DNA of 63,900 bases, the filler included, from Craspedostauros australis (lineage: Eukaryota): the NCBI GenBank assembly GCA_030167865.1. It is 15 parts of 15 records of this genome, joined end to end, with 100 filler letters (N's around TTAATTAATTAA, not from the genome) between each part and the next. Parts side by side here need not be neighbours in the genome. Positions count along the whole stretch, not along the records: positions 23,770 to 31,011 come from JALAGF010005479.1; 14 more parts are not named here. One strand, 5' to 3'. This document shows positions 1 to 63,900 of this stretch, one piece after another. How positions within the stretch are numbered: the stretch's first letter is position 1; each line of letters starts with the position of its first letter. The notes beneath the pieces were generated by a model. The model searched no databases, had not been told where the DNA came from, and worked only from the letters and a program-made list of their open reading frames with translations. Both the position numbers and the translations under genes were made by a program.

Positions 1-1
1 C

Positions 2-13334: not shown

Positions 13335-13434
13335 NNNNNNNNNNNNNNNNNNNNNNNNNNNNNNNNNNNNNNNNNNNNTTAATTAATTAANNNNNNNNNN
13401 NNNNNNNNNNNNNNNNNNNNNNNNNNNNNNNNNN

Positions 13435-15587: not shown

Positions 15588-15708
15588 NNNNNNNNNNNNN
15601 NNNNNNNNNNNNNNNNNNNNNNNNNNNNNNTTAATTAATTAANNNNNNNNNNNNNNNNNNNNNNNNNNNNNNNNNNNNNNNNNNNNCCTGATCTATCGTT
15701 TATAAACG

Positions 15709-16526: not shown

Positions 16527-17327
16527 GTGGTTGTGCACCAGTTGGATGAACTGTTGCATGTTTCTGCCTTTCTTGAACCTGTCAGTGAATCCCTGTTCTC
16601 GCTTGGATTGATTTGGAGAGTCAGCACTGTTGTGGAGGAGTCTCTGTTGTTGAGAGTTGATCCACAGGGTCTGTGACTTGTCTTGGAGGCCGGTCCATTC
16701 TGCGTTTGGTGTACCTGCAGTCCAGGATACCCAGTTGCGACCTTGCTTGATGAGGCCTCCCATGATGGGAACGACAGGGTTTCTGGAGAGGTCGTTGTCC
16801 TTGTTGTCACTGTCACTTCCTGACTTCTTGTTCTTCTTGGGCATGGGAGTTTCCATGTTGAAGATGCTGTTGTCGAAGAAGGATTTGTTCGTTTGGAATC
16901 AAGTGGCGTCAGCGGATCGGCCGCGCCCGGTACCAGAACGACTTGGGGTGGCTGTGGTTGTGGCTGTTGCTGCTTGAGCAGTGGCTACAGCCGTGTTTGC
17001 TGCTTCTGTAGCGGCTTTGGCCAACAGTGCTGCCTGTGTGAGGCGGGCATTCTTGCATGTGATCGCATAGAGCTGCGATTGCAGCTCTTCCAGCATGGCA
17101 GGGGGTGTCTCTTCCACCATGGTGGATAGCGGGGACTTCTTGAGGGGTCTTTGGACTTCGAGAGGATCGGTTCGCCTTCTTCTACTCTTGCTCGTCTTCA
17201 CTTCGTTTGGAAGGTGTGCACTGAAGTTCGATGCAGGCTTGGAGAGGGATCGTACTCGGTCAGCGAGTGCGGTCATAGCTTGCTTTGGCAGAGGCTACTG
17301 AGGGCCGACGTTTGGTCGCTTTCCTTC
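16527..17327 (-). mobile_element. Copia family B leader and gag N-terminus (fragment)
   Basis: Encodes PIMGGL...WVSWTAGTPNAEWTGL; near-duplicate of about 19177-19947 and homologous to 36079-37577. Confidence 0.85.
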
Positions 17328-18095
17328 TGTTAGGAATCGAGGGTATGACTTTGTCGGAATACCCATGATTGCCGCACCTCCCAACATTATTCGTCACGAC
17401 TTTGAATATTATTCGTCACATGTTCTGAGACTATTTGTCACACCTTTGAATACCATGTCATTATGACTATGACTATGGACACGGACGTGATTGATACCTG
17501 TACTACCGCGAGGAGGGTAGTCTGTCCTCTGGTAATGTAAGAACGACACCTATGGCGGATCAGGAGGTCCCGATACCAAACCAACCATGGCAACCATGCA
17601 GACGACGACGTCGATCAGAACAGCAGGTCAATGGGCAAGTGACGCACCCCCTCCAGAGGACAGCACGCGCCCCTCCTGCGGACAAGAACATCCGCAGGTT
17701 TGGAACATCAGAAAGGATCAGAACATCCGCAGGTTTGGAACATCACCAAGGCTGACATCAATCGTGGGACGATGGCGTCATGAGATCAACAACGGAAACA
17801 TGTGATAGGCAAGTGCTCAGGACTGCAGATCCCTACCATGCGAGCGTAGACAGCTACGACGATGCAGAGGCAAGCAACAACGATGCCAAGACAAGGAAGC
17901 AAGAACAGAGCATGATGAATGGGGAGAGAAGCACCTAAGAGACAACAGGGCGCCCCGTGTCGCCACCGCAACAGATGCCTACCATGAAAAATGGAATCGG
18001 AAGAGAAAGTGAGATTGTGCTCACAGTTCTAAAACGGTACAGTTTCTAACAGCGGATTAGATTACAGTACTAACTATAACCCTGGATTTCCAACA
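17328..18095. mobile_element. Solo LTR-like element (family F) with long imperfect inverted termini
   Basis: Starts TGTTAGGAATCGAGGGTAT and ends ATAACCCTGGATTTCCAACA (reverse complement TGTTGGAAATCCAGGGTTAT); both ends break family B homology sharply. No TSD. Internal 26-bp direct repeat at about 17685-17745. Confidence 0.7.
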
Positions 18096-20160
18096 GCAGT
18101 GATGCTGTTCATGAACTTGATGAATGTCGAGATGTACATGTGAGTATATGTCAAGATGTACGAGTATATGTGCATCGTTCACCCGCTATTCTCTCATACG
18201 CACTTGGACGGTATAACTACATTCGTGTCGATAGTATNNNNNNNNNNNNNNNNNNNNNNNNNNNNNNNNNNNNNNNNNNNNNNNNNNNNNNNNNNNNNNN
18301 NNNNNNNNNNNNNNNNNNNNNNNNNNNNNNNNNNNNNNNNNNNNNNNNNNNNNNNNNNNNNNNNNNNNNNNNNNNNNNNNNNNNNNNNNNNNNNNNNNNN
18401 NNNNNNNNNNNNNNNNNNNNNNNNNNNNNNNNNNNNNGAGAGCAGAAGGACGCCTACTGACGTCAACAGGATGTCATTGTGTCACCACGTCGACATCTGT
18501 CTCCAAGTCAGAGCAGGAGGCGAAGATCCGATGAAAGAAGAGGATCAGCCTCATGGATACAGAAGGTGAACTTCAAATGGTAAGTACTCACGGAGTAGGA
18601 GCCAGTACTGAATGAACGGAGTGTCAAATGCGGAGTACGCATCGAACACGGAGTATCGTGTAGTACGAGCACACGATGTTGAGAGAGAGAGAATACAGAG
18701 AGGAGCGAGAGAGCATCTCGCGTACCGACTCATAGTCGGAGTCTCAATCTACGAAACAGATTGAAGCGCCGAGAGCATCAGGCAAGAGAACGGGCGTACA
18801 CCGAGAGGATCGGAGTAGCCAACTCATGAAATAGCAAACAGACAACTATCAACCAACACCATCTTCCACGATCGTAGGTCACCGTGAGCGGAACTTGCCA
18901 ACAGATGAAGAGGTTGATGAAGTTATTGTGGAACTTTGGCTCGATTCGATTCATGAGCTGGTCTTCGAGCCTTGGATCGAAACAGTCTTGGAAGAACGCT
19001 GCAGCTGTCCAGTTGTTCTGGAGGTTGTAGTGGTCCCACTTTGGGTTGCACTTGCTGTAGTGCTTTGTGGCATCTTCAAGAGTGAAGGAGGCAGGGGCGT
19101 CGAGGACACAGGCCATCTTGGATGTTGAGGTATCGTTGGCGATGTACACCATGGTGAGAAGCCCAGTCTTGGTCATGTGGTTGTGCACCAGTTGGATGAA
19201 CTGTTGCATGTTTCTGCCTTTCTTGAACCTGTCAGTGAATCCCTGCTATCACTTGGATTGATTTGCAGAGTCAGCACCATTGTGGAGGAGTCTCTGTTGT
19301 TGAGAGTTGATCCACAGGGTCTGTGACTTGTCTTGGAGGCCGGTCCATTCTGCATTTGGTGTACCTGCAGTCCAGGATACCCAGTTGCGACCTTGCTTGA
19401 TGAGGCCTCCCATGATGGGAACGACAGGGTTTCCGGAGAGGTCATTGTCCTTGTTGTCACTGTCACTTCCTGACTTCTTGTTCTTCTTGGGCATGGGAGT
19501 TTCCATGTTGAAGATGCTGTTGTCGAAGAAGGACTCGTTCATTTGGAATCGAGTGGGCATCAGCGGATTGGCTGCACCTGGTGCCAGAACGACTTGGGGT
19601 GGCTGTGGCTGTGGCTGCTTCTGTAGCGGCTTTGTCCAACAGTGCTGCCTGTGTGAGGCGGGCATTCTTGCATGTGATCGCATCAAGCTGCGCTTGCAGC
19701 TCTTCCAGCATGGCAGGGGGTGTCTCTTCCACCATGGTGGATAGCGGGGACTTCTCGAGGGGTCTTTGGACTTCGAGAGGATCGATCGGTTCGCCTTCTT
19801 CTGCTCTTGCTCGTCTTCACTTCATTTGGAAGGTGTGCACTGAAGTTCGATGCAGGCTTGGAAAGGGATCGTACTTGGTCAGTGAGTGCGGTCATAGCTT
19901 GCTTCGGCAGAGGCTACTGAGGGCCGACGTTTGGTCGCATACCTTCAGTTGGGACTTTTGTCCTCTTGGGAAACTCGATTTTCGAGTGATGGAATCTGGT
20001 CTTGGATCAGATGCATTCGGTTGGGACTTCAGTCCTACAGAAGATGCTCAGTTTGCAAGCTGTGCCTTTTGGCTTGGTCTCAGAGAGACGTTTGCAATCT
20101 GTTGGCAGAGGAAGATGCTCGATGGAATGGTGAGAGCATATGAATCAGGTCGCAGCTACC
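18096..20160 (-). mobile_element. Copia family B internal region (PBS, leader, degenerate gag), interrupted by family A solo LTR
   Basis: MQQFIQLVHNHM...CVLDAPASFTLED...QNNWTAAAFF matches 36079-37577; in-frame stop near 19249; PBS (T)GGTAGCTGCGA at 20150-20161. Confidence 0.85.
18125..18903 (+). mobile_element. Family A solo LTR with GATGAA target-site duplication
   Basis: GATGAA-TGTCGAGATG...CTTGCCAACA-GATGAA; removing the LTR and one TSD copy restores the family B gag reading seen at about 37080-37125. Confidence 0.92.
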
Positions 20161-20873
20161 AGTTGGAATTCGTGCTCTGTTGGTGACACGATTTGGTGGA
20201 GAGGGCCTCGAAGACTGCCGGTTTCGGGTTAACTGTGCAATGCAGTTCAAGAGGTGTGAACTTTGTCGGAAGATGTGTTACAGTAACAATGAGTAGAGTA
20301 GTGCAGTTTGTACTAATCTCAGATTGTGTTATTTTGAGTTTCTTAGTTGTCTTGGTAGGATGAAGAAACGATGTTGCACTGCTCAATACAGTCCTGCACT
20401 GATTTACTTTGTTCAGGGCTTGAGGGTGGATGTTGATCCTTGGTCCTTGCTCTCTTCATACGTGGTTACATTGCAGTGTAGATCATGACAGCTCAGTATT
20501 CAGTTGAGGTTGAGATGACGATGCGGCAATGGCTGAGGTTGGAATTCACCCTCGGATTCCTTGCTTGAGTTGAAGCAAGTTGGATATGCGTGCTATGGCC
20601 ATGACAACAATGTAGTGGTCATGAGCATGGAGGGAATCGAGGTATGTTGTAGTAGAGAGGATTTGAGGAGCATATAGTTCCCAGAGCAGAATGGAATCAG
20701 GTTGGTCATGGCATTGAGTCAGCACTGATTCGTGAATGGGAAGAGAGAAAGGGGGAGGAAAGGTTTCGTAGTCGATCAAGTCGGAGGGTTTCGCGCAAAA
20801 AAAGCGAGAATCTCAGACATCGGCCGAGGACGCCATGTTTTGGTAATAGTCTGTCCCTGATTGAATTTCAACT
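20161..20873 (-). mobile_element. Family B 5' LTR (AGTT...AACT termini)
   Basis: Homologous to 26158-26964, 54056-54742 and 62858-63900 with the same boundaries; adjacent to PBS and gag. Confidence 0.85.
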
Positions 20874-23086
20874 GTTCCAACAATAGCACGAGTAAATGAT
20901 TGTACAGATTTCGTTTTTACGTAGGTCGTGGTAGGACAAACGCGTTCAAGAAGTACACGGTGTCGAGACAAACGATACAATAGTGTAATTATCTCTGGGT
21001 CATGAAGGGATAAACAATGAAACAACCCAGCCCCCTACTCTTTCCTTTCCCCTCAGCAACCCCAACCCAGGTTCCTTCCATCGTTGCAAAAGCTAAAAGC
21101 TCCTCCCGACGAGCGGAGCATGAACAAAGCGGATCGACCGAAACAACCGCGATGGTCTGGTTCGCTTTCCTTCATCCCCGTGGCGATTTTAGCATCCTTT
21201 TGGTTGGAAAACAATTAAAAAGTGAAGGCAGACTTTCTTTTTCTTTCTCACTTTTTGGCAACGACCGGTCGGGGCATCGTTGAAGCATGATTCATCACAA
21301 AGAACGACAAGATGACCCCTCTTGTGGGTGTTCAGTCAATCTCTCTCTTTCTGTTCGCGACCACGATCAAAACTCCATGTGCGAATTGTTGTACCCGCAT
21401 GTAATGAAATCAATGCGCTGCATAGTACGACAACCAGCACGGTAGCTCATCAAAAACCTGTGCGTAACAACGGTTGAGACAGCAGTGACAACGGTAGCAA
21501 CTTGAGACATGCGCGAAAAGATTCACAGACACAAGGGCGAAAGGCATCGCGGGAGCATCATGCAGCCCTCATTCGATCCCACGCGACTGTGGAGATAACT
21601 GCTCGCGCTTGATTGTCCTCGTACGCAATTGTACTGGTCGCGACATCAGTGACCCAACGGTCATCGATAGTGCCAACCTACTACCACAACAACAGCGCAA
21701 CCACTCCATAAGTATAGTACCACCATCTTGTCTGACATTGCTATCCATACCAGCGAGATTGACGATGGCATCCTTGCGTATTTGTGCTCGCCACGAGCAG
21801 TTGAACGTCGGCACTTCAGACCCGAACTTCAATCTTGTGCTATCGATGCTTCCAACGGAATAGATAATTGCCCTGTGCATTTGCATCTCGATGCATATCA
21901 GTGCTATACAATCGGGAATGAACACGAGACGCTCTGCCAGTTGATCAATTCTAGCTCATCCTTGCGCAACTATGACCAGAGAGCTTGGGCCTCCCAAGAG
22001 AGTCGAAGACCGCGGTTCCAATTGCATCCCAGTAGACCTGTCTTGTGGCTCGTCAAATCGCTTCCGGGTCGAGTGTTCTGCGTCCAAACGCAGAAGGCCA
22101 AAAGTATGGCGGAGGCGGAGATGAAGACTTTCTGATCTTGCGGTCATCGTGCGGAATACAAGAGACTCCGATACAACTCTTCTTGATGTCAATGAATGGC
22201 ACAGCGCCATGGCGACAAGGAATGTAGGAGTGGATGGGGTACAATTATGCGTACTTTTATCAACTGTTTTGCCGAGAGAGCCCAAGCGCATTGCAATCCC
22301 AGAGCAGGATCAGCTCCTTCGCTTCTCGGTCTCTTCGAATTGAAGCTGTGCCTCGTCCAGGGTAGGGGCTCCCCATCGCGAATGAAATCACGAATAGAGG
22401 ATGATATGCAAGCCTCGAGTCCGTGGGAGGACACGTAGGATGGTATGGTGTAGGTAGGTACGAGGAGGCAGGCAGATATTGAGTTTCTGAGTCGAAGCGA
22501 GTTGTATGGTAGAATAGTATATATGGCGCGGTGCTTCACTCCTTTCCAAGGCTTTGGACCATGCTCCCGCCTCCTGAGAATACCTTACTGCACGAGTAAT
22601 GCTTGTCAAGTGCTCTATCAACTCAGCTACGCCTCAATCCCTCCCTCAATCCCTCCCTCGATCCATTTCCATCTCATAAAATCCAACTGCTCTCACAAAG
22701 CAAGCGCAAATCAAACACAAAGAAACGCAAGAAGCAAGCAACCAAACGTGAGTAGCTTCTGCTCGTATTCGTCCTGCTTCATCTCGGTCCTCTTATCATC
22801 CTCCAATACGGCTCCCGCGCTTCTTCCCAATTCCATTTCACTCCTTTGCGATCTGCTACACGCTCTCGCCTCCTCTCGATGGCGTTGCATATTCGTACCA
22901 TTGCTCCACGAGATCCCCAAATTCTAACCTCGTTTCGTCTTCAACCCTTTGCTTCTCCTATCTGCTGGCTCCCCAAACAACCACAAACGTCGGTATGGCA
23001 TGGCATGGCACAATGCCCTACTCTGGGAAATCCTGTCACATCCGCAGCGAGTTCATATCAGACAATCAACGAAGACAACGCTGACC

Positions 23087-23669
23087 ATGAACGTCAAGAC
23101 TCTCCTGGGATCGCTCGTGTTGAGCCAGATCGGCAGCAATGCCGTCCATGGCATGTTCGACACCGTCTCTGACGCTGGTGGATCCAACTCGGAGCCATGC
23201 CCGTTGGACTATCAGTTGCTCCGTTCCAGCGACTTCCAGTACTCGGGAGCACCAATCGAGATCGTGAGCCAGGACACCAGCTCCGTCTCCTTCAAGGTTT
23301 ACAACGTGTGGCCACAAGACGGCCGCCCCACCGCCGAGATCTACACCGAGTACTCCGAGAACAACAGCATCGGCGGTGTCAACTGCGAGATGTTCGCCAA
23401 CGTCCCGGCCAACCAGGACGTGGGCGAAACCTTCACTGCGCAGTGCTTCCAGACCAAGCCAAAATCGGTCGTCACCCTCTACGTGCGTGATCCCGACATC
23501 GACAAGACCATCGGAACTGGCAAAGTTCCGCAGTGCTGCCATGCCGACCTCTCTATCCAGTACGCAGTCCTCAAGTTCACCTACGTGCTCGAGTGCGTCC
23601 CAACCTGCGAAGATCCCACCCCATTCTCCAGCTGCGGTGACGGCACAGTGGATCCAGGTGAAGAGTGCG
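23087..23669 (+). CDS. Secreted Cys-rich diatom-type protein followed by a Myxococcus-type Cys-rich (DUF4215-like) repeat; 3'-truncated
   Basis: Signal-peptide-like MNVKTLLGSLVLSQIGSNAVHG; PIEIVSQDTSSVSFKV...FTAQC...VPQCCH...LECVPTC; then CGDGTVDPGEEC. Strong C-ending codon bias. Confidence 0.75.
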
Positions 23670-23769
23670 NNNNNNNNNNNNNNNNNNNNNNNNNNNNNNN
23701 NNNNNNNNNNNNNTTAATTAATTAANNNNNNNNNNNNNNNNNNNNNNNNNNNNNNNNNNNNNNNNNNNN

Positions 23770-25935
23770 TCTGGCTAACGTCGCCCGCATACACCTCAGA
23801 GCGCTTTGGTTGTCGGACATCACCTCCGCCTGTGGCACACGCATCCTGCCCGACATCCTGCGACGATCCAGGCTGCCACCAGGCACCACCACGTGGCCCA
23901 AGACGGGGACCGTAACCCGGACAGCGTGGGAAGCTTGGGAACATGTGCTGGCAACTCTGGTGGCCGCAGACAGACCAGGTTGGCATGTGCAGGCGACCCT
24001 CGGTCTGTGGTACCACGCGCCCTCACGCCGCGCTGCTCAACTCCCAGACGGAACGATCAGGCTACCAGGCCAGGCGAGAGCCCAAGACACCAACGGCCCC
24101 CTCCCAACGCATGTGGTCGACAGATCTGCTCGGCGATCCGGAGCGGCCACCACAGCATCCGGGGGCATTCAAGCCCGCGCCAACCCGACCTCCATTCGTG
24201 CTTGGCTACACCACAAAGGCCCCGCAGCCATCGCCATGCTACCAACGCTGCAGATCCAAGGCGACGTCCACCAAATCGTTCAGTCGATCACGACCGGCAC
24301 ATGCGCAGCCTGCAGCGATGCATCAGCGAAGCACAGCAAAGGCGCAGCCGCAGCAGTCATCCAAAGTGCGGTCGGAGACGACACGCACCAGATCGTCGCC
24401 ACATCAGCGGTTCCCGAAGGGTCGCACCCGACAGACTCCAACCGGGCCGAGCTTGCTGGAGTGCTCATGTCCATATGGGTGGTGACTTCCATTGCAGAGT
24501 GGGCAGGTGTGACTGGCGGCGCCACCATCGCGTGCGACAACGACAGGGCGCTCAGGTCTGTGACCACTTCCCAGTGGCCCGACCCCAGGCGGCCCGACCA
24601 CGATCTCAGAGCAGAAATCGTCCGACTGCTGCGCAAAACAGTGGTGCAATTCCGGCAGCAGGAAGTGAAAGGTCACGCAGATGACTCCGGCCAGCCTCTC
24701 ACGGAATGGGAAACCATGAACGTCGCCGCCGACGCACACGCAGGCCGACAATGGGAGAGCTCGAGCCAGACCGGATGGAGCAATGATATTCCCCCTGTAC
24801 CCACTGGAGGATGGACCTTGCTCGCAGGCGCCACGCCCATCACCGACCTCGACTACTGGACAGTGCACAATGCCCTTGATGGCACCGGCATCCAACTCAA
24901 GTGGTGTCGGCGCTGGGGACACGCGCACCCCTCTGAGGTGGACTGGATGCCCATGCGTACCAACTCCCGACGTTGGCAAGGCGGCAGGCGACGCACACTG
25001 CTCAAGCTTATGGCTGGTGCAGGCGCTAGCGGCAAGAACATGCAGCGGCGACAGCAGGAGGCCTCTGACACATGCCCCAGATGTGGCCGGCCGGAAGACA
25101 ACTCTCACGTTGTCATGTGCCCCAGTGCATCCAGTCAGGCCATTTGGTCCAGGACGATACTCAAGGTGCGGTCAATCGTGCGACCGCCAACCACGCCACC
25201 GCTCATCGCTCAATTGCTATGTACGGCCATCACCCGCATCTCCACAGGAGGCATTCCCCCGTCAGGCATTCGCGACTCTCCCACCAAGAGTATCCAGCAA
25301 CAGCAAGCGAAAGTGGGGTGGAATGCCATAATGTGGGGCGGGTGGGCCACGGCCTGGCGAGAGCATGCCCCTCCTGCGGATCAGCGCCGCCGCAGACGAC
25401 TGCCCCGACAACTCCGCGACTGGCAAGCCAGTGTGACAAGTCTGCTGTGGCACGCGATCCTGGAGCAGTGGAAAGACCGCAACGAGGTTAAAGCCTCGCA
25501 GCTCGCTGACGGTATGGTGGAGCTGCTCGAACAGCAGGCCCTCCAAGTCCGGTCAGTGGCGCCAGCACTTGTACCGCCCCCGCTGCGGCCCCTCTGGGAA
25601 CAACCACCTCCCATACAGCAAACCCGCGCCCTTGCGGAATGGGTGCAGGCCATGCACAACGCGCTCGGCCACAACAGCCCCCCTCTCCCGAAAGTGCTCT
25701 CCAACTGGATGCTCAACGTCCGGCGAAAGGCGACCTCCGCTTCCGACTCCGCCCACGCCACACCACGCCAATCTCCCACCGATACCTGAAGTGTTCCTCT
25801 TGGCAACCACGGCTGCCACACGACTTCACTCCGTTCCCGCAATGTGCTACCATGTTGAATAAACGAGGCGGAATAAAAGCGCCATCGGCGCATGACGTAA
25901 CCGTTATAATCTGTGTGTTATATATGTAGGTAGAT
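23770..25935 (+). mobile_element. 3' part of a second Ambal-like non-LTR retrotransposon (RNase H, CCHC finger, 3' UTR)
   Basis: ORF to 25789 with CSDASA, DSNRAELAG, ACDND, VKGHADD, MNVAADAHA, CPRCGRPEDNSHVVMC; same domain order as 9670-13334. Confidence 0.85.
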
Positions 25936-26157
25936 CAGCTTTGGCGGTCTGTTGTCGATTTCCTCTGATGCTTCCGGGTATTCCTCCTTCATCTGCAAGG
26001 CCATTTCTGGATTGGATGGTGTTGCATTGAAGTTGTCAAATATCATCGGGCAAGAGTCAATCTGTGTTTGCAATGTGGACTTGTGCTCCAGATATCCCCA
26101 TACTTTGATGGCTCTCTCAAGGCGTCCTTTACAAGATGATGCAGCAAAATGTGAAAG

Positions 26158-26964
26158 AGTTAGGATTCGTGCGTAGGCGTCGCGAATCGGTGGAGAATGC
26201 CTTGTGAATCTGCCGGCTTCGGGATAGCCGTGTAATGCAGTTCAAGAGAGGTGTACTGATTGAAGAGTTATAACTTGTAACGATGAGAAGTAGAGTGCTT
26301 TGTAGCTAATCCTTGTCTGTTTATTATGAGTTAGCTTATTGGTGTTAGTAGGGTAAAGAAACGATGCCACACAACTTGGCGAGACCCTGCACTGATGCAC
26401 TTGATTCAGTGTAACAGAATAGACAATCAATACAGTGCTTTGCTCTCTGCACATGTAGTTACACTGCAGTGTAGGTCATGACAATCAGTGATGACGATCA
26501 TGAAGCAGTGGCTGTGGCTGAAGCTGACCCTCAGATTCCATTGCTTGAGTTGAAGCAAGTTGGATACGCATGTTGGGACCACGGTGGTAGTGTGGTGGTC
26601 ATCAGCATGATGGAATCNNNNNNNNNNNNNNNNNNNNNNNNNNNNNNNNNNNNNNNNNNNNNNNNNNTGAGTTGAAGCAAGTTGGATACGCATGTTGGGA
26701 CCACGGTGGTAGTGTGGTGGTCATCAGCATGATGGAATCGAGGTATGTTGTAGTAAGGAGGATCTGAAGAGCATATAGTTCCCAAGTGGGTGTGAGTCAG
26801 GTCGGTCAGGTTTGAGTCATGATGGATTCGTGAATGGAGGAGAGAAAGGAGGAGAAAAGATTTGGTGGTCGATCAAGTNGGAAGATTTCGCGCCAAAACA
26901 AGAATTTCTCCCATCGGGTTGATACCGTGTTCGGTAATAGTCTGTCCCTCATTGAATCTCAACT
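26158..26964 (-). mobile_element. Family B solo LTR with GAAAG target-site duplication
   Basis: GAAAG(26153-26157)-AGTTAGG...CTCAACT-GAAAG(26965-26969). Confidence 0.92.
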
Positions 26965-27609
26965 GAAAGTGAAGAAGTTGCAAATGCAAAATCAAAACGT
27001 CCAAGTTGAACAACTCAGTTCATCATCCCGATGAGCTGCTGGAACTGGTGATGTTAGTCAGGTGTTCGTAGTTTGGAGCCATCCGTTTCCAGATGATTTT
27101 TGTTCTGCGTGGGACCATGTTGGTTGTGTATTGGTCCCTGTTGTCGTTCCAACTTGTCCAATGCATTTGCAATGTATTTGCTGCAGGCAGGCTTGCAGCA
27201 GATACTGTGATAACGCTTGATCCACAGCCACTGTTGGACCTCAAGAAGCCAATCGGCCACATGAATGATGTCATTGTGCTTCCGCTGACGCTGCATGAGA
27301 GTGCCAGCATGCACCCTGCGGCATTGGCTGCAGTGGGTTGCCGTCAGTGTGTCCACATGGCATGTCATGATGCTCAAAATATCAAGCCATCCCAACAATA
27401 CGGCGTTTGACATCGACATGTCGTCATCAGGCAACCATCCACCTGCTGACATCACCTGGAACAGCATGAACGACCAAGAGCAGCTACAAGTCTTCAACAT
27501 CGCCCCTGGACATCATGCTTGTTGCATTCCGTAGTGGCAATCCAGACTGCGGCATTCATATCTCATGGATAGCAGCGAACATGAGGTGTGGACCCTGGGC
27601 AATGTGGCA

Positions 27610-28465
27610 TATTGGCAAGTTCTGCTCACAGATACTCTTGCGACTGTTGATGGTGGTGGTGGTGGTTGTTACTATTTTTCTTGCTATTTCATTGCATTGT
27701 TCCAATGCCTCTTGGAGTCTCCCAATACTCTTGGTGTCTCTCAACTATCGTCCGACTATGAGTTGGCATGTGAGATGCTCTCCTGCTATTTCTTGTATTC
27801 TCTTGCTCTTTCTCTCTCTCTCTCTCGTGTGTTGGTACTGCGCGATAATCAGTGATAGATACATACTCTGTATTTGATACATATTCCATCATTTTGTCCT
27901 CTACTGGTGCACTACTCTGTGAGTATTTGCCAATGTCTCATCTGAACTCCTCCTTGCATATCCACAATCTTGATGTCACTTGGTCATTGAATCTTCACCT
28001 TCTTGATCTGATGTGGAGACAGATGTTGATGTGGTGACATGATGACATCCTGTTGATGTCAGCTGTCGTCTTCCATGATCCTTCAGATTCCATATTCCAT
28101 CGATGATGCAGTGGTATGGCGAGGATATCGTCATTTGAGGTTTAGTTGTGAAAAACATCGATCCTTGCTCGATGTCATGCATTTCTGTCAGTTGATGGAC
28201 AGACTGCATTCCTGATGCTCTCAGAAATGAGTGTTCACAGATATCCTTCCAAAATTCTGATTTTTTGTGTGTGCCAATTTTGTGATGTGATTTCGATCAA
28301 CCACAGATCATTCACAGATCAATCACAGATCAATCACAGATCACTCACAGATCGCTCACAGATCAATCACAGATCACTCACGACACAAATGTTTGCGCCG
28401 CTTGTGCGTAGAGCATACAAGAACAATGGGTGAGCGATGCACATACACATATGTACATTCCAACA
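27610..28465 (-). mobile_element. Diverged family A-related LTR containing an 11-bp minisatellite
   Basis: TATTGGCAAGTTCTG...ACATTCCAACA, colinear with 40968-42138; about 8 copies of GATCAATCACA-like units at about 28295-28382. Confidence 0.8.
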
Positions 28466-28808
28466 GGCAAGGCAGCAATCACAGGGCACACATTCACAGC
28501 TACTCTGGCTGCTACGGATTTCTGGCTGTTCTTTGCTGTCACAACCATGGAGAACAAGACCATCTATGGCACTGACATTTACAATGCATTTGCTGAGGCT
28601 TCTTGTGGTGCACAGAAGTACTACATGCATGTTGACAGCCCCTTTGCTGACTGGTGGCAGTCGTGGGGACGCGCACCCATTCCGTGCGGCTGCATGACTC
28701 TCATCAGCAAGAATCCTCAGGGTCATTCCTGATCACTATGGCAGTGGGCAGTGCACTTCAATGCACAGCTGCAGCGCATGGGTTTCAGGCCCACCACGCA
28801 TGCTCTAT
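28466..28808 (+). pseudogene. Degenerate copia RT fragment
   Basis: HTFTATL...IYGTDIYNAFAEA...YMHVDSPFADWW...PIP...QGHS*...MGFRPTTH resembles the diatom copia RT pattern D..NAFAEA...QGHPES. Confidence 0.75.
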
Positions 28809-29613
28809 TGTTGGCAAGTTCCGCTCACGGTAACCTACAATCGTGGAAGATGGTGTTGGTCGATAGTCGTCTGTTTGCTATTTCATTAGTTGGCTACTCC
28901 AATCCTCTCGGTGTACGCCCGTTCTCTTGCCCAATGCTCTCGGTGCTTCAATCTGTTTTGTAGATTCGGTCTCCGACTATGAGTCGGTACGCGAGATGAT
29001 CTCTCGCTCCTCTCTGTATTCTCTCTCTCTCTCTCTCTCTCTCAACATCGTGTGCTTGTACTACACGATACTCCGTGTCGAATGCATACTCCGCATTTGA
29101 CACTTCGTTCATTCAGTACTGGCTCCTACTCCATGAGTACTTACCATTTGAAGTTCATCTCCCGTATCCATGATGCTGATCTTCTTTGGTCATCGGATCT
29201 TTGCCTCCTGCTCTGACTTGGAGACAGATGTTGACGTGGTGACACGATGACATCCTGTTGACGTCAGTAGGCGTCCTTCTGCTCTCCAGATGTCATGTTC
29301 CATTGGTGATGCAGCAGTCTGTCAGATGATATCGTCATCTGAGGTTTAGTTGGGAAGTACCTTCAGATTCTCTTGGTACCATTGATGGATGGACGGACGA
29401 TCTTCCAATTCTCTCAGAAATCGTCATTTGCAAATTTCCTCCAGAAATCTTGCTCCTTTTTGTGTGTTCCATTTCCACTGTAATTCTCACGAATCACAGC
29501 ATATTATTGACACGAATGTAGTTATACCGTCCAAGTGCGTATGAGAGAATAACGGGTGAACGATGCACATATACTCATACATCTCGACATGTACTCACAT
29601 GTACATCTCGACA
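28809..29613 (-). mobile_element. Family A LTR, ungapped 805-bp copy
   Basis: TGTTGGCAAG...ATCTCGACA on + strand, internal (CT)n tract; flanks CTCTAT and CCCATG do not match. Confidence 0.9.
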
Positions 29614-29949
29614 CCCATGCACATTTTACATATTTTTTGTATGTGCGGTGATGCTTTGTTTGTGTACTTCATTGGCACTCCATCGGCCAGCAGTTGCATG
29701 CCAGCTTTCCACTGTCGCGAAGATCAGAGAGTGATGGGTTCCATCCAGGATTCTGAGGTTTTGACCTTCTGTAGAAGTAACTGTGTCATGGACATACATG
29801 ACAGGCGTTCCAGTTCAATGCATCCTCATACTGAGATGATGATGGAGAGTGATGCTGTGATCAACAACATGGTTGATGGTTGCGTTGGGCATTTGTGGAT
29901 AGTCCTGTCCACACTGTTTGACATCAGGTATTGGATCCAAGCCATGTTG

Positions 29950-30630
29950 ACACCATCGTCTCTCCGGCGTTCGCGACTCCCCCACCAAATCCATACAGCT
30001 GCAGCAAAGCAAAGTAGGCTGGATGGCCATGATTTAGGGCGGATGGGCAATGCAGTGGAGTGCGCAAGCACCTCCCATGGCACCTCACCATTGCAGGCGC
30101 GCCCTCGACTACTTCACAATTGGCAGGACAGGGTTACCAACCTCATGTGGCATACGACACTGATGCAATGGCAGGACCAGACCAAGGTCAAAGCATCCCA
30201 GACTTCCGATGACACGATGCCCGTGCTGCTCCAATATTTTCAGATACTGCAAACATGCCCACCAGCCACTATCCCTGCAGTCCTGCACCCACTTTAGGAG
30301 CATCATCCGCACACTGAGCAGACGGCCCAGCTCATTCCATTGGTCCAAGCCATGCACCAAGGCCTTGGAGGCAATGCACCACCAGCCACGGCAGTGCTTG
30401 TGAACTGGAAATGGAACTATAGGCGGATTGCACCCTGAGACGATTCCCCTGCCATCACAACATCGCCAGCAAACAGACCTGCCCAGTGGACACAGTCCTC
30501 TCTCCCAACACAATCATAATACTGACACATCCGTTCCCACTGCGTGCAGACATGGAGAATAAACGAGGCAGAATCAAAGTGCCCCCCAGCGCATAACTTA
30601 ACAGTTATAATCAGTAAGGTATATATGACA
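29950..30630 (+). pseudogene. Decayed 3' end of the Ambal-like family seen at 23770-25935
   Basis: WQDRVTNLMWH...QWQDQTKVKASQ versus WQASVTSLLWH...QWKDRNEVKASQ; shared 3' UTR motifs GAATAAACGAGGC, GTTATAATC, TATATATG. Confidence 0.8.
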
Positions 30631-31111
30631 CCATCATTTCGAACCTCAGAAGTAGAGCATTGATGAAGCATTGAAGTGACTGTAGTCTTCTGGGTGGTAG
30701 TGAGGAAGCTGGGGGAGGGAAATGGTGGGACCCTCCTGCTCATCATCACTTTGGAGCAAGGGTGTTCAGTTTACATATTGGCTTGCGTCACGTCCTACAA
30801 TAGAGTTCGTCCTCAAAAGAACTTGTCTACATGATGTCTACATGCGTGATACGTGTATGATGCAGGTTCACATTCAAAATGAGATGATTGTTCACTTGAT
30901 TTCGTCGTTGACACTATCAAACGTCATAGAGCAAGTTATAGGGTCAAACGAGTCGCGTAGCTCGTATTGGTCAAAGATTCTGTGACCGTACAGTCATAAG
31001 CAACCGAGGCGNNNNNNNNNNNNNNNNNNNNNNNNNNNNNNNNNNNNNNNNNNNNTTAATTAATTAANNNNNNNNNNNNNNNNNNNNNNNNNNNNNNNNN
31101 NNNNNNNNNNN

Positions 31112-35820: not shown

Positions 35821-36078
35821 TCAGCGCTCGTCTCGCTTCTCGTCTCTTCCTCGATCACGCGCGTGAGAGGGTATTCTTCCACTTCAGTCTCTTTTGCTCA
35901 TTCAGCGCCTCGCGCTCTTCGTTTCGTCCTCGATCACCGGTGTGAGAGGGTATGCTAGCTCGTCTCTCGCTCGTCGCTNNNNNNNNNNNNNNNNNNNNNN
36001 NNNNNNNNNNNNNNNNNNNNNNTTAATTAATTAANNNNNNNNNNNNNNNNNNNNNNNNNNNNNNNNNNNNNNNNNNNN

Positions 36079-37577
36079 TGGCGTCGACAGCTCTGTTGGG
36101 GCTGTGTCTTCGTGGCACGTTTGAGTGAAGGAGGAGCAGCGTGATGGCAATTATCATCCAGGTGTTAGTAGCCGTGACGTACCACCCGTGCTCGACTCCG
36201 AGAGTGTAGACTTGGAGGCTCACGAAAGAAAGGATTGATCCGATCACACAGCTGAGGTAGTTGAAGGAGGTGAAGAGGTTCCACACAAACGACCACCATT
36301 CCTTTTCGTCTTGGCTAGCGGTGGCTGTNAAGCAGGTCCAAGCGGCCATGTCGACGACGAGGTGGTCAGGCTTGGCGTTGTTATTGCCTTTACCTTTCGG
36401 TTTGAAGTTGTCTTGATGGCTCTCGGTGTTATGCGAAAGACGCCAACGACGACACTTTGCGCACCACATGAACGTCTTGTCGTAGACAAGCTTGCGCTGT
36501 GGTTCACCCGCTTTGGGTGGTGTGGATGCCCAACCTTGGTTCGGTTTTCGATTGCCGTTGTTGTTGTTGGGCTTCTTTGGTTGAGTCTTCTTCTTCGCGT
36601 TGTTCCTTCCGAAACCCTTGTGTTGCTCAAGGATGTTGGCCTTTGGATGCTTGGCTACGTTGTTGAAGTNNNNNNNNNNNNNNNNNNNNNNNNNNNNNNN
36701 NNNNNNNNNNNNNNNNNNNNNNNNNNNNNNNNNNNNNNNNNNNNNNNNNNNNNNNNNNNNNNNNNNNNTGGCTGCGAGCTTTGGAAGCGCTTCTTGGTAC
36801 GTGAATATGGGGAGACGCTTGAGGATTATCTCAAGATCATCCTTCATCACATAAAGGGGACGTCGGTATTGTTCACCGGAAAGGAACTTGCCGCCTGCCT
36901 GAAGGAAGGCGTCGAGGATGTTGCGGAGCAGATGGAGGTCAAAGCGACCAGCGTCATCAAGGCTCTTGCAGAGGGCGCGAAGCTTGACAGCCATGTCTCC
37001 GACGTTCTCACCAGCGAACTGAGAGCAGTCGACTTGACGGATGTCCTTGGCGATCTTGTCTTGCTCGTCAAACGAGTTGGCGGTGATGCTATTCATGAAT
37101 TCGATGAAGAGGGTTAGGAAGTGGCTGTGATACTTCCTTTCGATTTGGTTCATGAGCTGATCTTCAAGAACTGGGTCAAGGCTGTCGAGGAAGAACGCGG
37201 CGGCTGCCCAGTTGTTTTGGACGTCGTAGTTGTCCCATTTTTCGTGGTACGCTTCGAAATGCCTCATTGAGTCTTCAAGGGTGAAGGAGGCAGGTGAGTC
37301 GAGGACACATACCATTGTTGGGGTTGCAGNNNNNNNNNNNNNNNNNNNNNNNNNNNNNNNNNNNNNNNNNNNNNNNNNNNNNNNNNNNNNNNNAATGAAT
37401 TGCTGGATGTTGCCGCCTTTCTTGAACTTGTCGGTCAATCCAGTTTCGCGCTTGGCTTGGTTCGCAGAGTCGGCTCCGTTGTGGAGGATTCTTTGCTGCT
37501 GGGCGTGGGTCCATCTAGTTTGGGATCCTTCCTTGAGGCCAGTCCACTCCACGTTTGGTTCGCCTGCTGTCCAGGGT
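36079..37577 (-). mobile_element. Copia family B gag (diverged subfamily) with zinc knuckle and hydrophobic extension
   Basis: Open frame with QFAGENVGDM, WCAKCRRWRLSHNTESH, then WWSFVWNLFTSFNYLSCVIGSILSFVSLQVYTL and WMIIAITLLLLH. Confidence 0.8.
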
Positions 37578-39523: not shown

Positions 39524-39726
39524 TATCAGCACAAAATCGAATATTGCTAAGTACGTTACTCCCGTAGCCCCCACTATCTATAAATTTCACTTGTGTTTGG
39601 ATCAGCAATCGCATCGCCTGTAGCTCAACGGTAGAGCACCAGTAATTCTAACTGAGGTTCCGGGTTCGAATCCCGGCATGGTACTTTGCTTTTGCTCACC
39701 CCTTGTGATTTTTCGATAGTGCTCTA
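39524..39726. mobile_element. 203-bp MITE-like insertion with 8-bp TSD (one mismatch) and imperfect TIRs
   Basis: ATTCCCTT (39516-39523) and ATACCCTT (39727-39734) duplicate gag codons KGI. Left end TATCAGCACAAAATCGAA versus right-end reverse complement TAGAGCACTATCGAAA. Confidence 0.75.
39614..39684 (+). ncRNA. tRNA-like/tRNA-derived Pol III unit (pseudo-tRNA; isotype not assignable)
   Basis: D arm GCTC-AACGGTA-GAGC and T arm CCGGG-TTCGAAT-CCCGG are perfect (A and B boxes). Anticodon loop AATTCTA lacks U33; acceptor stem mostly mispaired. Confidence 0.7.
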
Positions 39727-53795: not shown

Positions 53796-54742
53796 TTGGC
53801 AGAGGCTACTGAGGTCTGACCTTGGGTCGCTTACCTTCAGCTGGGACATTGTCCTCTTGAGTGGCTCGGTTTTCGAGCGGTGGGGATCTGATTTCAGATC
53901 AGATGCATGCGATGAGGACGTGGTCCTTGTTGGAAGCTCGGTCTGCGAGCTGTGCCTTTTGGCTTCGTCTCAGAGAGACTCTTTGCGATCGGTTGGCAGA
54001 GGAAGATGCTCGGTGGAGTTGATTAGAGAGTATTTGGCAACCACTCGCAGCTACCAGTTAGGATTCGAGCGTGGTTGGCACGAATCGGTGGAAGATGTCT
54101 CTTGGTTCTGCCAGCTTCGAGATAGCCGTGTGATGCAGTTCAAGAGAGGTGTACTAATTGAAGAGTTATAACTGTAACAATGAGTAGTAGAGTGCATTGT
54201 AGCTAATCCTTGTCTGTGTTGATTATGAGTTAGCTTGTTGGTGTTAGTAGGGTGAAGAAACGATGCCACACAACTTGGTGAGACCCTGCACTGATGCACT
54301 TGATTCAGTGCAACAGAACAGACAATCAATACTGTACTTTGCTCTCCTCACATGTAGTTACACTGCAGTGTAGGTCATGACAATCAGTGATGACGATCAT
54401 GAAGCAGTGGCTGTGGTTGAAGCTGACCCTCGGATTCCATTGCTTGAGTTGAAGCAAGTTGGATACGCATGTTGAGACCACGGTGGTAGTGTGGTGGTCA
54501 TCAGCATGAAGGAATCGAGGTATGTTGTAGTAAGGAGGATCTGAAGAGCATATAGTTCCCAAGTGGGTTGTGAGTCAGGTCGGTCAGGTTTGAGTCATGA
54601 TGGATTCGTGAATGGAGGAGAGAAAGGAGGAGAAAAGATTTGGTGGTCGATCAAGTCGGAAGATTTCGCGCCAAAACAGGAATTTCTCCCATCGGGTTGA
54701 TACCGTGTTCGGTAGTAGTCTGTCCCTTATTGAATCTCAACT
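53796..54742 (-). mobile_element. Family B leader, PBS and 5' LTR (LTR 54056-54742)
   Basis: Minus strand AGTTGAGATTC...CCTAACT-GGTAGCTGCGA; abuts family C leader sequence (54743 onward matches 55326 onward). Confidence 0.88.
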
Positions 54743-62675: not shown

Positions 62676-62857
62676 NNNNNNNNNNNNNNNNNNNNNNNNN
62701 NNNNNNNNNNNNNNNNNNNTTAATTAATTAANNNNNNNNNNNNNNNNNNNNNNNNNNNNNNNNNNNNNNNNNNNNGTAAAAGTTGCGGTCAAAAACGGAA
62801 TGGAGTGACAATGAAATTTATATTGGATCGAAGTAATCCCCTAGGTCATGAAGGGAT

Positions 62858-63900
62858 AGTTGAGATTCAATGCGGGACAGACTATTACCGGACATGGTAT
62901 CCACCTCTGATGGGAGAAATTCTTGTTTTGGCGCGAAATCTTCCAACTTGACCGACCACCAAATCTTTTCCCCCTTCTTTCTCTCCTCCATTCACAAATC
63001 CATCATGACTCAAACATGACTGACCTGACTCACATCTCACCTTGGGAACTATATGCTCCTCAGATCCTTTCTCTACAACACACCTCGATTCCATCCATGC
63101 TAATGACTGCTGCACTATTGCTGTAGTCTTGACNCGTGTATCCAACCTGNTTCAACTCAAGCAATGGAATCCGAGAGTGAACTCAAGCCACAGTCATTGC
63201 TTCATGACCGTCACCATTGAGTGTCATGACCTACACTACAGTGTGTCTATGTGTGTGGAGAGCAAGGAACTGCAACAATCACCTACCCTCAAGCACTGAA
63301 CCAAGTACATCAGTGCAGGGTCCCACCAAGCTGAGCGACATTGTTTCTTCACCCTACTAACACTACANNNNNNNNNNNNNNNNNNNNNNNNNNNNNNNNN
63401 NNNNNNNNNNNNNNNNNTATATGCTCCTCAGATCCTTTCTCTACAACACACCTCGATTCCATCCATGCTAATGACTGCTGCACTATTGCTGTAGTCTTGA
63501 CGCGTGTATCCAACCTGATTCAACTCAAGCAATGGAATCCGAGAGTGAACTCAAGCCACAGTCATTGCTTCATGACCGTCACCATTGAGTGTCATGACCT
63601 ACACNACAGTGTGTCTATGTGTGTGGAGAGCAANGAACTGCAANAATNNCNTACCCTCAAGCACTGAACCAAGTACATCAGTGCAGGGTCCCACCAAGCT
63701 GAGCGACATTGTTTCTTCACCCTACTAACACTACAAGCTAACTCATAATAAACAGACAAGGCTTAGCTACAAAGCACTCTTCTACTCATCATTACAGCAA
63801 TAACTCTTCAACCAGTACACCTCTCTTGAACTGCATTACATGGCTATCTCGAAGCTGGCAGATTCACGAGGCATCCTCCACTGATCCGCGTCGCCTAAGC
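62858..63900 (+). mobile_element. Family B LTR, forward orientation, truncated by window end
   Basis: Begins AGTTGAGATTCAATG; reverse complement of 26158-26964; internal gap duplication. Confidence 0.87.

What the first reader, a model, noticed from the sequence alone, without database searches (positions are those of the whole stretch)
26153..26969. Copia-type family with non-canonical AGTT...AACT LTR ends and a PBS overlapping the LTR
Seen: a solo LTR bounded by AGTT...AACT with an exact GAAAG duplication. The same boundaries recur at 20161-20873 and 54056-54742, and one at 62858. In both 5' LTRs the terminal T is also the T of TGGTAGCTGCGA, complementary to a tRNA ending UCGCAGCUACCA (compatible with an A1-U72 initiator Met tRNA). 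Known: LTRs nearly always end TG...CA, while AGT-starting termini are typical of insect gypsy-group errantiviruses. Inference: this diatom lineage, copia-like judged from Gag only, has an integrase with altered end recognition and would be missed by TG/CA-constrained LTR finders.
Basis: partly seen in the sequence, partly recalled or inferred. Interest (0 to 1): 0.8.

Follow-up and report, generated by a model that had tools for sequence, protein, structure and literature searches.

The report
Diatom copia retrotransposon with AG...CT ends
A family of copia-type jumping genes in a diatom genome has repeat ends that read AGTT...AACT instead of the almost universal TG...CA, and environmental relatives appear to share this, so standard search programs would overlook them.

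Summary
Four copies of a ~690-bp LTR align, and similarity starts exactly at AGTT and stops exactly at AACT. One copy (26158-26964) is a solo LTR flanked by an exact 5-bp GAAAG duplication. Two copies are 5' LTRs followed by TGGTAGCTGCGA, whose T is the last LTR base. The fourth is a 3' LTR preceded by a polypurine tract.

The window is a chain of unplaced scaffolds joined by stop-codon linkers, so the gag beside copy C belongs to another piece and another family.

The valid copia link is the ORF behind LTR A. It is 51% identical to a gag elsewhere in the window. That gag has 548 remote homologues, and the long ones carry integrase before an RVT_2 reverse transcriptase, with no RVT_1.

In 23 environmental loci encoding this gag, all 13 that hold the 3' untranslated region have ...GGGAG followed by AGT[CT]. 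Fourteen of 16 LTR ends before the primer site end in T (9 ACT, 2 CA). Their primer site matches the anticodon arm of initiator tRNA, as in Drosophila copia and Ty5, not the 3' end.

So AG...CT ends look clade-wide, and the window family has changed its primer site. A 2009 paper already reports three diatom copia families without TG/CA. I rate it a new variant of a known kind.

The parts
26153..26157 (.). Target-site duplication GAAAG, left copy on the + strand
   Evidence: identical to 26965-26969.
26158..26964 (-). Solo LTR of the AGTT...AACT family. Real length is about 685 bp; it contains a 50-N gap (26618-26667) and a 72-bp assembly duplication.
26965..26969 (.). Target-site duplication GAAAG, right copy
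20161..20873 (-). 5' LTR of element A (713 bp), the divergent subfamily, about 73% identical to B
20150..20161 (-). Primer binding site TGGTAGCTGCGA of element A. Its first T (20161) is the last base of the LTR.
18904..20149 (-). Leader and start of gag of element A. The gag begins near ...PIMGG..WTAG. There are two adjacent in-frame stop codons between 19249 and 19245.
   Evidence: (51% identity to P0001).
18125..18903 (-). Solo LTR of a second, canonical family (TGTTGG...CGACA) inserted in the gag of element A, flanked by TTCATC on both sides
16527..17335 (-). Second partial copy of the leader and gag start of the family (90.7% identical to 19177-19954), cut off by the 5' LTR of a canonical-family element at 15709-16526
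54056..54742 (-). 5' LTR of element B (687 bp)
54045..54056 (-). Primer binding site TGGTAGCTGCGA of element B, sharing T 54056 with the LTR
53798..54044 (-). Leader of element B (78% identical to 19906-20160), interrupted by the end of a canonical-family LTR (53712-53797) at the scaffold edge
62848..62857 (+). Polypurine tract ATGAAGGGAT directly before LTR copy C. It matches the ATGAAGGGAG / GAAAGGGAG tract of the relatives.
62858..63900 (+). 3' LTR (copy C). It runs off the window about 15 bases before its expected end and contains a 50-N gap and a 318-bp assembly duplication.
36079..37573 (-). Gag ORF of a related element (P0001, 498 residues including two runs of X), used as the probe for the gag family

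Best explanation
These are copies of a Ty1/copia-type LTR retrotransposon family in a diatom genome. The family belongs to a clade defined by a distinctive gag (consensus MGG..AWTGG.P..DWTGL ... WC.KC.RW..H.T..H) and a single gag-pol polyprotein of about 2000 residues.

Shown:
- The integrated LTR ends are 5'-AGTT...AACT-3'. They are the tips of a 12-base imperfect inverted repeat.
- Integration makes a 5-bp target duplication.
- A polypurine tract (ATGAAGGGAT) abuts the AGTT end.
- TGGTAGCTGCGA abuts and overlaps the AACT end by one T.

Inferred:
- The element's integrase joins a ...CT-3' end to target DNA instead of the usual ...CA-3', without trimming. The AG and CT are present at the outer junctions of integrated copies.
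- Minus-strand synthesis is primed by the 3' end of a tRNA ending UCGCAGCUACCA. That tRNA has A1-U72 and A73, the mark of a eukaryotic initiator tRNA-Met.
- The final T of the LTR pairs with A76 of the primer. For it to appear at the end of the 3' LTR and of the solo LTR, either the terminal ribo-A of the primer is left on the minus strand and copied, or the primer lacks A76.
- Relatives keep the AGT[CT]...T ends but carry a primer site complementary to the anticodon arm of initiator tRNA. The window family has therefore exchanged its primer site while keeping its ends.

All copies seen here are damaged or partial.
For: Boundaries:
- 4 of 4 copies begin to align at AGTT, and 3 of 3 end at AACT.
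- The solo LTR has an exact GAAAG duplication.
- The terminal inverted repeat matches at 9-10 of 12 positions.

Primer site and polypurine tract:
- There are two exact 12-mers, both at 5' LTR ends. The flanks diverge immediately after them.
- Copy C is preceded by ATGAAGGGAT.

Copia link:
- The ORF behind LTR A lies on the same gap-free stretch (18904-20873).
- It is 51% identical to P0001 and matches the gag part of the L009 polyprotein at E = 5e-10.
- P0001 has 548 homologues at E <= 1e-3.
- I scanned 21 of the 150 listed hits: the 18 of at least 1041 aa and the 3 best shorter ones. Fifteen have gag_pre-integrs, 7 have RVT_2 and none has RVT_1.
- 6 of 6 full polyproteins from the loci have gag_pre-integrs upstream of RVT_2.

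Clade-wide ends:
- In 13 of 13 loci that hold the region between the pol stop and the primer site, the only noncoding ..GGGAG is followed by AGT[CT].
- In 16 of 23 loci a GGTTA..CCCA motif lies upstream of gag. The four bases before it are GACT 8, AACT 1, GATT 2, GAGT 2, AAGT 1 and GACA 2.
- Inverted-repeat matches at these inferred ends are 3-7 of 8. The low value for L012 comes from an off-by-one end.
- L008 carries GGTTATGAGCCCAA, the exact complement of an initiator-type anticodon arm with anticodon CAU.

Host: a DUF6824 gene in the window has its nearest clusters in Bacillariophyta.
Against: - No element with both LTRs, and no pol, is linked to this LTR family in the window. The copia assignment rests on gag homology.
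- Only one copy gives a target duplication, and only one gives an outer right-hand junction.
- In the relatives the LTR ends are inferred from polypurine-tract and primer-site adjacency and inverted repeats, not from LTR pairs or target duplications. Those contigs are collapsed or tandem assemblies.
- Some loci are near-duplicates of each other (L002 and L007; L010, L011 and L015).
- 3 relatives end in CA before the primer site (L001, L017; L012), and 3 end in AGT. The 3' end is therefore less uniform than the 5' end.
- The host's initiator tRNA could not be inspected. No genome is held, there is no tRNA in the window or the loci, and no such tRNA turned up in the two collections scanned.
- None of the 23 relatives has a TGGTA[GT]C site within 1.8 kb upstream of gag. 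The 3'-end primer site is seen only in this family.
Confidence: 0.75

Rival explanations
1. The primer is not the intact initiator tRNA, or the shared T is not part of the primer site. The primer could be another tRNA, a tRNA lacking A76, or a fragment. The site proper would then be GGTAGCTGCGA abutting the LTR, as GGTTA... abuts the LTR in the relatives.
For: In 16 of 16 relatives with a recognisable site, the site starts at GG directly after the LTR. The preceding T cannot pair with the tRNA position next to the anticodon-arm match. The host tRNA was not available.
Against: TGG followed by a complement of an acceptor stem with U72 and A73 is the standard signature of a 3'-end primer site for an initiator tRNA (established knowledge). 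The 12-mer including the T is identical in A and B, although the LTRs are about 73% identical and the next bases differ.
Confidence: 0.2
2. The family is a non-autonomous or long-dead derivative moved by the enzymes of another element. Its odd ends would then say nothing about a copia integrase.
For: - Every copy in the window is partial.
- The gag of A has two in-frame stops and a nested LTR insertion, and loses homology after about 18090.
- B is cut 260 bp after the primer site.
- No pol is linked.
Against: - The LTR is followed by its own gag of the same clade whose full-length relatives show the same AGT ends with their own intact copia polyproteins.
- The solo LTR and B are 92-98% identical, which indicates fairly recent activity.
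- The first 11-13 LTR bases resemble those of the relatives (AGTTGAGATTC against AGTCGGAATC and AGTCAAGGAATTC).
Confidence: 0.07
3. The boundaries are mis-set. The true LTR is canonical, and AGT/ACT are flanking or linker bases, as with the two extra bases at the ends of unintegrated retroviral DNA.
For: In the relatives alone, one could read the polypurine tract as ...GGGAGAG and the LTR as T[CT]...[AG]A, with two bases lost on integration.
Against: In the window, AG is present at 3 of 3 outer left junctions that are not preceded by a polypurine tract (A, B, solo). CT is present at the one outer right junction, and the 5-bp duplication lies directly outside them. No TG/CA pair lies within the first and last bases in B or the solo copy.
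Confidence: 0.03

Closest known systems
CoDi elements (Ty1/copia-like elements of diatoms; Maumus et al. 2009, PMC2806351), especially families CoDi3.2, CoDi4.2 and CoDi4.3
   Same: Both are diatom copia elements with LTRs of 153-844 bp and mostly 5-bp duplications. The paper states that the TG/CA terminal repeat is missing in these three of 26 families (section 18, read). CoDi3 and CoDi4 are sister groups (passages).
   Different: The main text gives no terminal sequences, primer sites or polypurine tracts. Those are in Additional file 1, which could not be read. Whether this family or its clade is one of those three families is therefore open. No CoDi reference sequence was available for an RT tree.
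Drosophila copia and yeast Ty5 (priming from the anticodon arm of initiator tRNA-Met)
   Same: The environmental relatives carry, directly after the LTR, a complement of an initiator-type anticodon arm (exact in L008). Priming at the anticodon loop is stated for Ty5 and copia in PMC10886601 (passage).
   Different: The LTR before the site ends in T, not CA, in 14 of 16 loci. The three to six bases opposite the anticodon vary between loci. The window family does not use this site at all.
Ty1-like copia elements primed by the 3' end of initiator tRNA-Met
   Same: The window family has a TGG-type site complementary to CCA, a discriminator A and an acceptor strand starting with U72. It makes a 5-bp duplication. 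The Ty1 comparison is recalled, not tested here.
   Different: The LTR ends in ...ACT, so the T of TGG is inside the LTR. In the canonical arrangement the site follows the CA.
Insect errantiviruses of the Zam clade (Ty3/gypsy)
   Same: Their LTR end motifs are 5' AGTTAYRK and 3' TAAYT, without TG...CA (PMC3601003, Table 3). Here the ends are 5' AGTTGAGA/AGTTGAAA and 3' CCTAACT/TCCAACT.
   Different: Errantiviruses are gypsy-type (RT before integrase) and carry env. This clade has integrase before RVT_2 and no RVT_1, and a 5-bp duplication. The likeness of the ends is convergent or coincidental.

Membership tests
Ty1/copia (Pseudoviridae) | Pol order protease-integrase-RT-RNase H, with an RVT_2-type RT | tested here: inconclusive
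   This is met in the relatives. 6 of 6 full polyproteins have gag_pre-integrs before RVT_2. Of 21 long gag homologues, 7 have RVT_2 and none has RVT_1. No pol is linked to this LTR family inside the window.
Ty1/copia (Pseudoviridae) | Gag homologous to gags of copia elements | tested here: met
   The ORF behind LTR A is 51% identical to P0001 and matches the gag part of the L009 polyprotein at E = 5e-10. The Pfam model Retrotran_gag_2 does not match.
Ty1/copia (Pseudoviridae) | 5-bp target-site duplication | tested here: met
   GAAAG lies on both sides of the solo LTR. This is one copy only.
Ty1/copia (Pseudoviridae) | LTR termini TG...CA | tested here: not met
   The termini are AGTT...AACT in 4 of 4 and 3 of 3 copies. 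This feature is usual rather than defining. Three CoDi families also lack it.
Ty1/copia (Pseudoviridae) | Primer site for initiator tRNA-Met next to the 5' LTR, and a polypurine tract before the 3' LTR | tested here: inconclusive
   The site and the tract are present. The tRNA identity is inferred from A1-U72/A73 complementarity. The host tRNA gene was not available.
CoDi groups of Maumus et al. 2009 | Placement by RT-domain similarity among CoDi1-CoDi7 | not testable with these tools
   No CoDi reference sequences or accession numbers could be obtained (supplement unreadable), and the cluster look-up gave no names.
Errantivirus / Ty3-gypsy | RT (RVT_1) before integrase; env gene; 4-bp duplication | tested here: not met
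   No RVT_1 appears in 21 + 6 polyproteins, and integrase precedes RT. The duplication is 5 bp. An extra ORF after pol exists in 3 relatives, but its nature is unknown.

The most novel reading that the evidence does not exclude
A whole clade of diatom copia retrotransposons has given up the near-universal CA-3' reactive end for CT-3' (integrated ends AG...CT). This is convergent with insect errantiviruses, and the integrase-binding tip (AGTYRRGRATTC) is conserved across the clade. Within this clade one family has swapped its primer, from a fragment ending in the anticodon arm of initiator tRNA to the tRNA's 3' end. The swap re-uses the LTR-terminal T as the first base of the new primer site, so the last base of the cDNA would be specified by A76 of the primer. 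That would give a natural pair of closely related elements for asking how primer choice and end formation are coupled, and a copia integrase with a changed end specificity.
Probability: 0.45. Interest if true: 0.65.

Novelty: new variant of a known kind. Interest (0 to 1): 0.5.

Why it matters
The terminal CA is among the most conserved features of retroviral and LTR-retrotransposon DNA, because it carries the 3'-OH that integrase joins to the target. A copia clade that uses CT instead, apparently across many environmental lineages, would be a natural experiment on integrase end recognition.

It also has a practical side. Diatom genomes are annotated with LTRharvest restricted to the tgca motif (PMC7466962). 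Such elements would be missed or mis-delimited, and copia content under-counted.

The change of primer site inside the clade shows that primer choice can shift while the ends are kept.

The value is tempered. A 2009 survey already noted diatom copia families without TG/CA, and everything beyond the sequence anatomy is inference.

Tried and rejected
- Whole genome: none is held for this window. Genome-wide copies, target duplications and tRNA genes could not be collected.
- Sequencing runs for 53712-54833: none was listed.
- Pfam on P0001 and on three ORF pieces of the family: no family even at E = 10.
- Word-indexed protein search with P0001 at near lengths: 2315 candidates, none at E <= 1e-3. 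The exhaustive HMMER search then found 548.
- The search for related loci:
  - A3 was too diverse.
  - A4 in viral contigs gave 1 pattern match and no relative.
  - A4 was too diverse for metagenomes.
  - A5 worked.
- A pattern for the predicted initiator tRNA (acceptor halves from the window's primer site, anticodon arm from the relatives' site): 0 matches in prokaryotic genome contigs and 0 in viral contigs. Neither collection is expected to hold diatom tRNA genes, so this says nothing.
- The 15-mer AACTGGTAGCTGCGA in viral contigs: 31 loci, none encoding a relative of P0001 or P0004. These are chance matches.
- ARAGORN found no tRNA in the window or in L001-L023.
- Additional file 1 of PMC2806351 could not be read.
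- The cluster look-up of ten homologues gave no names or organisms. The atlas search with P0004 gave unnamed clusters without taxa.
- The copia RT ORF at 13436-15586 is only 22% identical to the L009 polyprotein. It is a different lineage, so it is not the missing pol.
- Earlier findings of this scan: nothing by place, sequence or words.
- Rejected reading: that the 'solo' LTR is the 3' LTR of a long nested element. The base run before it in sense orientation is pyrimidine-rich, and it has its own duplication.
- Literature: searches turned up no paper giving AGT...ACT termini for a diatom or other copia element, beyond the one sentence in PMC2806351. The library does not hold most subscription journals.
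Full report
WHAT THE WINDOW IS

The 63.9-kb window is not one stretch of chromosome. Fourteen linkers of the form N44-TTAATTAATTAA-N44 join at least 15 short unplaced scaffolds. The pieces are 1-6953, 7054-9069, 9170-13334, 13435-15586, 15687-23669, 23770-31011, 31112-35978, 36079-37577, 37678-49533, 49634-53611, 53712-56290, 56391-58702, 58803-60904, 61005-62675 and 62776-63900. Adjacency across a linker means nothing.

Many 50-N gaps are flanked by duplicated sequence, which is an assembly artefact. The pieces are dense in transposable-element remains. A host-type gene with DUF6824 (1336-3306, minus strand) has its nearest atlas clusters in Bacillariophyta. A diatom origin is therefore reasonable. 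No whole genome is held.

THE OBSERVATION

BLASTN with the three named LTRs finds exactly four copies:
- A, 20161-20873
- the solo copy, 26158-26964
- B, 54056-54742
- C, from 62858 to the window end, in the opposite orientation

In sense orientation all four become alike exactly at AGTTGA, and the bases before it all differ. The three copies whose other end is in the window stop being alike exactly after AACT.

The solo copy is flanked by GAAAG on both sides. With boundaries fixed by the alignment, that has a chance of about 1 in 1000. Its real length is about 685 bp once the 50-N gap and the 72-bp duplicate are removed.

The tips form a 12-base imperfect inverted repeat, matching at 9-10 of 12 positions. 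The tips are kept between subfamilies that are only about 73% identical (A against B). B and the solo copy are 92-98% identical.

A and B are followed on the sense strand by GGTAGCTGCGA. Together with the last T of the LTR this reads TGGTAGCTGCGA. These are the only two exact occurrences in the window, and the sequences diverge immediately after the 12-mer. C is preceded by ATGAAGGGAT, a polypurine tract. The window therefore holds two 5' LTRs, one 3' LTR and one solo LTR. The finding is confirmed as described.

WHAT THE LTR BELONGS TO

The copia gag with a Pfam match next to copy C (61238-62719, minus strand) is not linked to it. It lies in another scaffold and on the other strand. It belongs with the gags at 39699-40886 and 31957-35820.

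Those gags go with a second LTR family of about 805-820 bp with canonical ends, TGTTGG...CGACA. Its copies are at 15709-16526, 18125-18903, 28809-29613, 57310-58424 and 53712-53797. Relatives lie at 40968-42138 and 27751-28465.

The true internal region of the AGTT family is read behind LTR A, on a stretch without gaps (18904-20873). It runs primer site, then a leader of roughly 750 bases, then an ORF beginning ...PIMGGLIKQGRNWVSWTAGTPNAEWTGL.

This ORF is damaged in three ways:
- It has two adjacent in-frame stops.
- It is split by a solo LTR of the canonical family, flanked by TTCATC.
- It loses homology about 30 bases after that insertion.

A second partial copy (16527-17335) is cut by another canonical-family LTR. 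Element B is cut about 260 bases after its primer site.

A 74%-identical relative of the ORF fills scaffold 36079-37577 (P0001). Pfam does not recognise it even at E = 10, and the word-indexed search found nothing. The exhaustive HMMER search found 548 homologues at E <= 1e-3 and 173 at E <= 1e-10.

I scanned 21 of the 150 listed hits: all 18 of at least 1041 residues and the three best shorter ones. Fifteen carry gag_pre-integrs, 7 carry RVT_2 and none carries RVT_1. Pol_BBD, SH3_retrovirus, rve and zf-CCHC lie in copia order.

The ORF piece of element A (18904-19245) is 51% identical to P0001. It matches the gag part of a full polyprotein at E = 5e-10. The family is therefore copia-type by its gag. 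No pol of its own is in the window. The RVT_2 ORF at 13436-15586 belongs to a different lineage.

RELATIVES FROM METAGENOMES

A scan of metagenome contigs with a four-sequence gag alignment returned 23 loci. Six hold single open polyproteins of 1997-2101 residues. All six have gag_pre-integrs before RVT_2.

Most long contigs are collapsed or tandem assemblies (internal-LTR-internal). They carry terminal overlaps of 111-158 bases. LTR ends there can only be inferred from the polypurine tract, the primer site and inverted repeats.

The results are uniform at the 5' end.
- In 13 of the 13 loci that contain the region between the pol stop and the primer site, the single noncoding ..GA[AG][AG]GGGAG is followed by AGT[CT]. 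All other GGGAG matches lie in coding sequence.
- In 16 of 23 loci a motif GGTTA(N)CCCA lies upstream of gag. The hit in L006 is inside coding sequence and was dropped. L010 is counted once.
- The four bases before the motif are GACT in 8 loci, AACT in 1, GATT in 2, GAGT in 2, AAGT in 1 and GACA in 2.
- L012 has a variant site preceded by TGCA.
- The remaining six loci have too little upstream sequence or no recognisable site.

So 14 of 16 LTRs end in T, 9 end in ACT, and 2 (3 with L012) end in the canonical CA. L002 and L007 are near-duplicates of each other, as are L010, L011 and L015, so the number of independent families is about 12.

Inverted repeats start exactly at the inferred ends. 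Examples are AGTTG/CAACT in L009, AGTCG/CGACT in L010 and AGTCAA/TTGACT in L014. Contig L003 stops exactly at ...CTTGACT.

The first 10-13 LTR bases resemble those of the window family: AGTCGGAATC, AGTCAAGGAATTC and AGTTGAGATTC.

The primer site of the relatives is of another kind. L008 has GGTTATGAGCCCAA, the exact complement of UUGGGCUCAUAACC. That is an anticodon arm with three G-C pairs and anticodon CAU, the mark of initiator tRNA-Met. In the other loci the bases opposite the anticodon vary, while GGTTA and CCCAA are kept.

Priming from the anticodon loop is known for Drosophila copia and yeast Ty5 (PMC10886601, passage read). None of the 23 loci has TGGTA[GT]C within 1.8 kb upstream of gag.

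HOW IT MOST LIKELY WORKS

Shown: the integrated copies carry AG at the left and CT at the right outer junction, with a 5-bp duplication directly outside them.

Inferred:
- The cDNA is joined through a ...CT-3' end rather than ...CA-3', and without trimming.
- The conserved tip is the integrase binding site.
- Plus-strand synthesis starts after the GAAGGGA(G/T) tract.
- Minus-strand synthesis in the window family is primed by the 3' end of a tRNA ending UCGCAGCUACCA. U72 and A73 imply A1-U72, which in eukaryotes is particular to the initiator (established knowledge).

If A76 pairs with the LTR's last T, the first base copied is the C before it. The T at the end of the 3' LTR and of the solo LTR must then come from somewhere else. 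One source is a ribo-A left on the minus strand when the primer is removed. The other is a primer lacking A76, in which case there is no overlap. I cannot tell these apart.

In the relatives the T cannot pair with the tRNA, so it belongs to the LTR proper. The simplest history is that the T-ending LTR came first, and a new GG... site next to it created the TGG.

COMPARISON WITH WHAT IS KNOWN

- Maumus et al. 2009 (PMC2806351; section 18 read whole, passages) classified diatom copia elements into CoDi1-7. They state that the TG/CA terminal repeat is found in 23 of 26 families and is missing in CoDi3.2, CoDi4.2 and CoDi4.3. The actual termini are in Additional file 1, which I could not read. That file may already list these ends.
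- Benachenhou et al. 2013 (PMC3601003; passages and Table 3) give AGTTAYRK...TAAYT for the Zam clade of errantiviruses as the exception to TG...CA. The likeness to AGTTGAGA...CCTAACT is striking. But this clade is copia by domain order and has a 5-bp duplication.
- The Cyclotella cryptica genome paper ran LTRharvest with -motif tgca (PMC7466962, passage). The practical point about missed elements is therefore real.
- Four literature searches found no paper giving AGT...ACT termini for any copia element. The held library lacks most subscription journals.

VERDICT

The non-canonical ends appear to be a property of a whole gag-defined copia clade rather than of one family. The window family differs from its relatives by a 3'-end-type primer site that shares one T with the LTR.

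Four things remain untested: the tRNA identity, the end chemistry, the family's own pol, and whether these are the families already flagged in 2009.

I rate it a new variant of a known kind, interest 0.5.

Noticed in passing
whole window; linkers at 6954-7053, 9070-9169, 13335-13434, 15587-15686, 23670-23769, 31012-31111, 35979-36078, 37578-37677, 49534-49633, 53612-53711, 56291-56390, 58703-58802, 60905-61004, 62676-62775: The window is a chain of at least 15 unplaced scaffolds joined by N44-TTAATTAATTAA-N44 (a stop codon in all six frames). Any feature that spans a linker is an artefact.
   Followed up: yes
e.g. 26546-26617 = 26668-26739; 63050-63367 = 63418-63735; 41300-41532 = 41720-41952; 14432-14629 = 14771-14968: Many 50-N gaps are flanked by the same sequence on both sides (97-100% identical). 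These are scaffolding overlaps that inflate element lengths.
   Followed up: partly
15709-16526, 18125-18903, 28809-29613, 57310-58424, 53712-53797; relatives 40968-42138 and 27751-28465: A second LTR family has canonical ends, TGTTGG...CGACA. It has inserted three times into internal regions of the AGTT family. The solo copy at 18125-18903 is flanked by a 6-bp match, TTCATC. Where it is a 5' LTR (15709-16526 and 40968-42138, sense on the minus strand), the leader starts with the 12-base palindrome CGTTTATAAACG and shows no TGG-type primer site. Its gag matches Retrotran_gag_2.
   Followed up: partly
L013:6877-8463, L014:6737-8449, L020:2113-3531: Three environmental relatives carry an extra ORF of 473-571 residues between pol and the polypurine tract. 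It starts one codon after the pol stop and has no Pfam match. An env-like or accessory gene in a copia element would be worth a look.
   Followed up: no
52983-53544: A tandem array with a 12-base period and more than 30 copies. It reads as PT repeats on the plus strand and as glycine-zipper-like repeats on the minus strand.
   Followed up: no
45549-47060 (+): An ORF with a piggyBac-type transposase domain (DDE_Tnp_1_7, E = 1.3e-9).
   Followed up: no
9673-13386 (-): A 1238-residue open frame whose only match is a weak RVT_1, at the gathering score (E = 7e-7). This is a retroelement of another kind, neither copia nor clearly gypsy.
   Followed up: no
19246-19251 (-) against 16527-16898 (-): The gag of element A has two adjacent stop codons where the second copy reads Arg-Glu (SK**QG against SKREQG).
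   Followed up: no
L020, L022, L023: In three relatives the LTR appears to both start and end with AGT on the same strand (AGTT...GAGT/AAGT). The second base breaks the inverted symmetry seen in the others.
   Followed up: no
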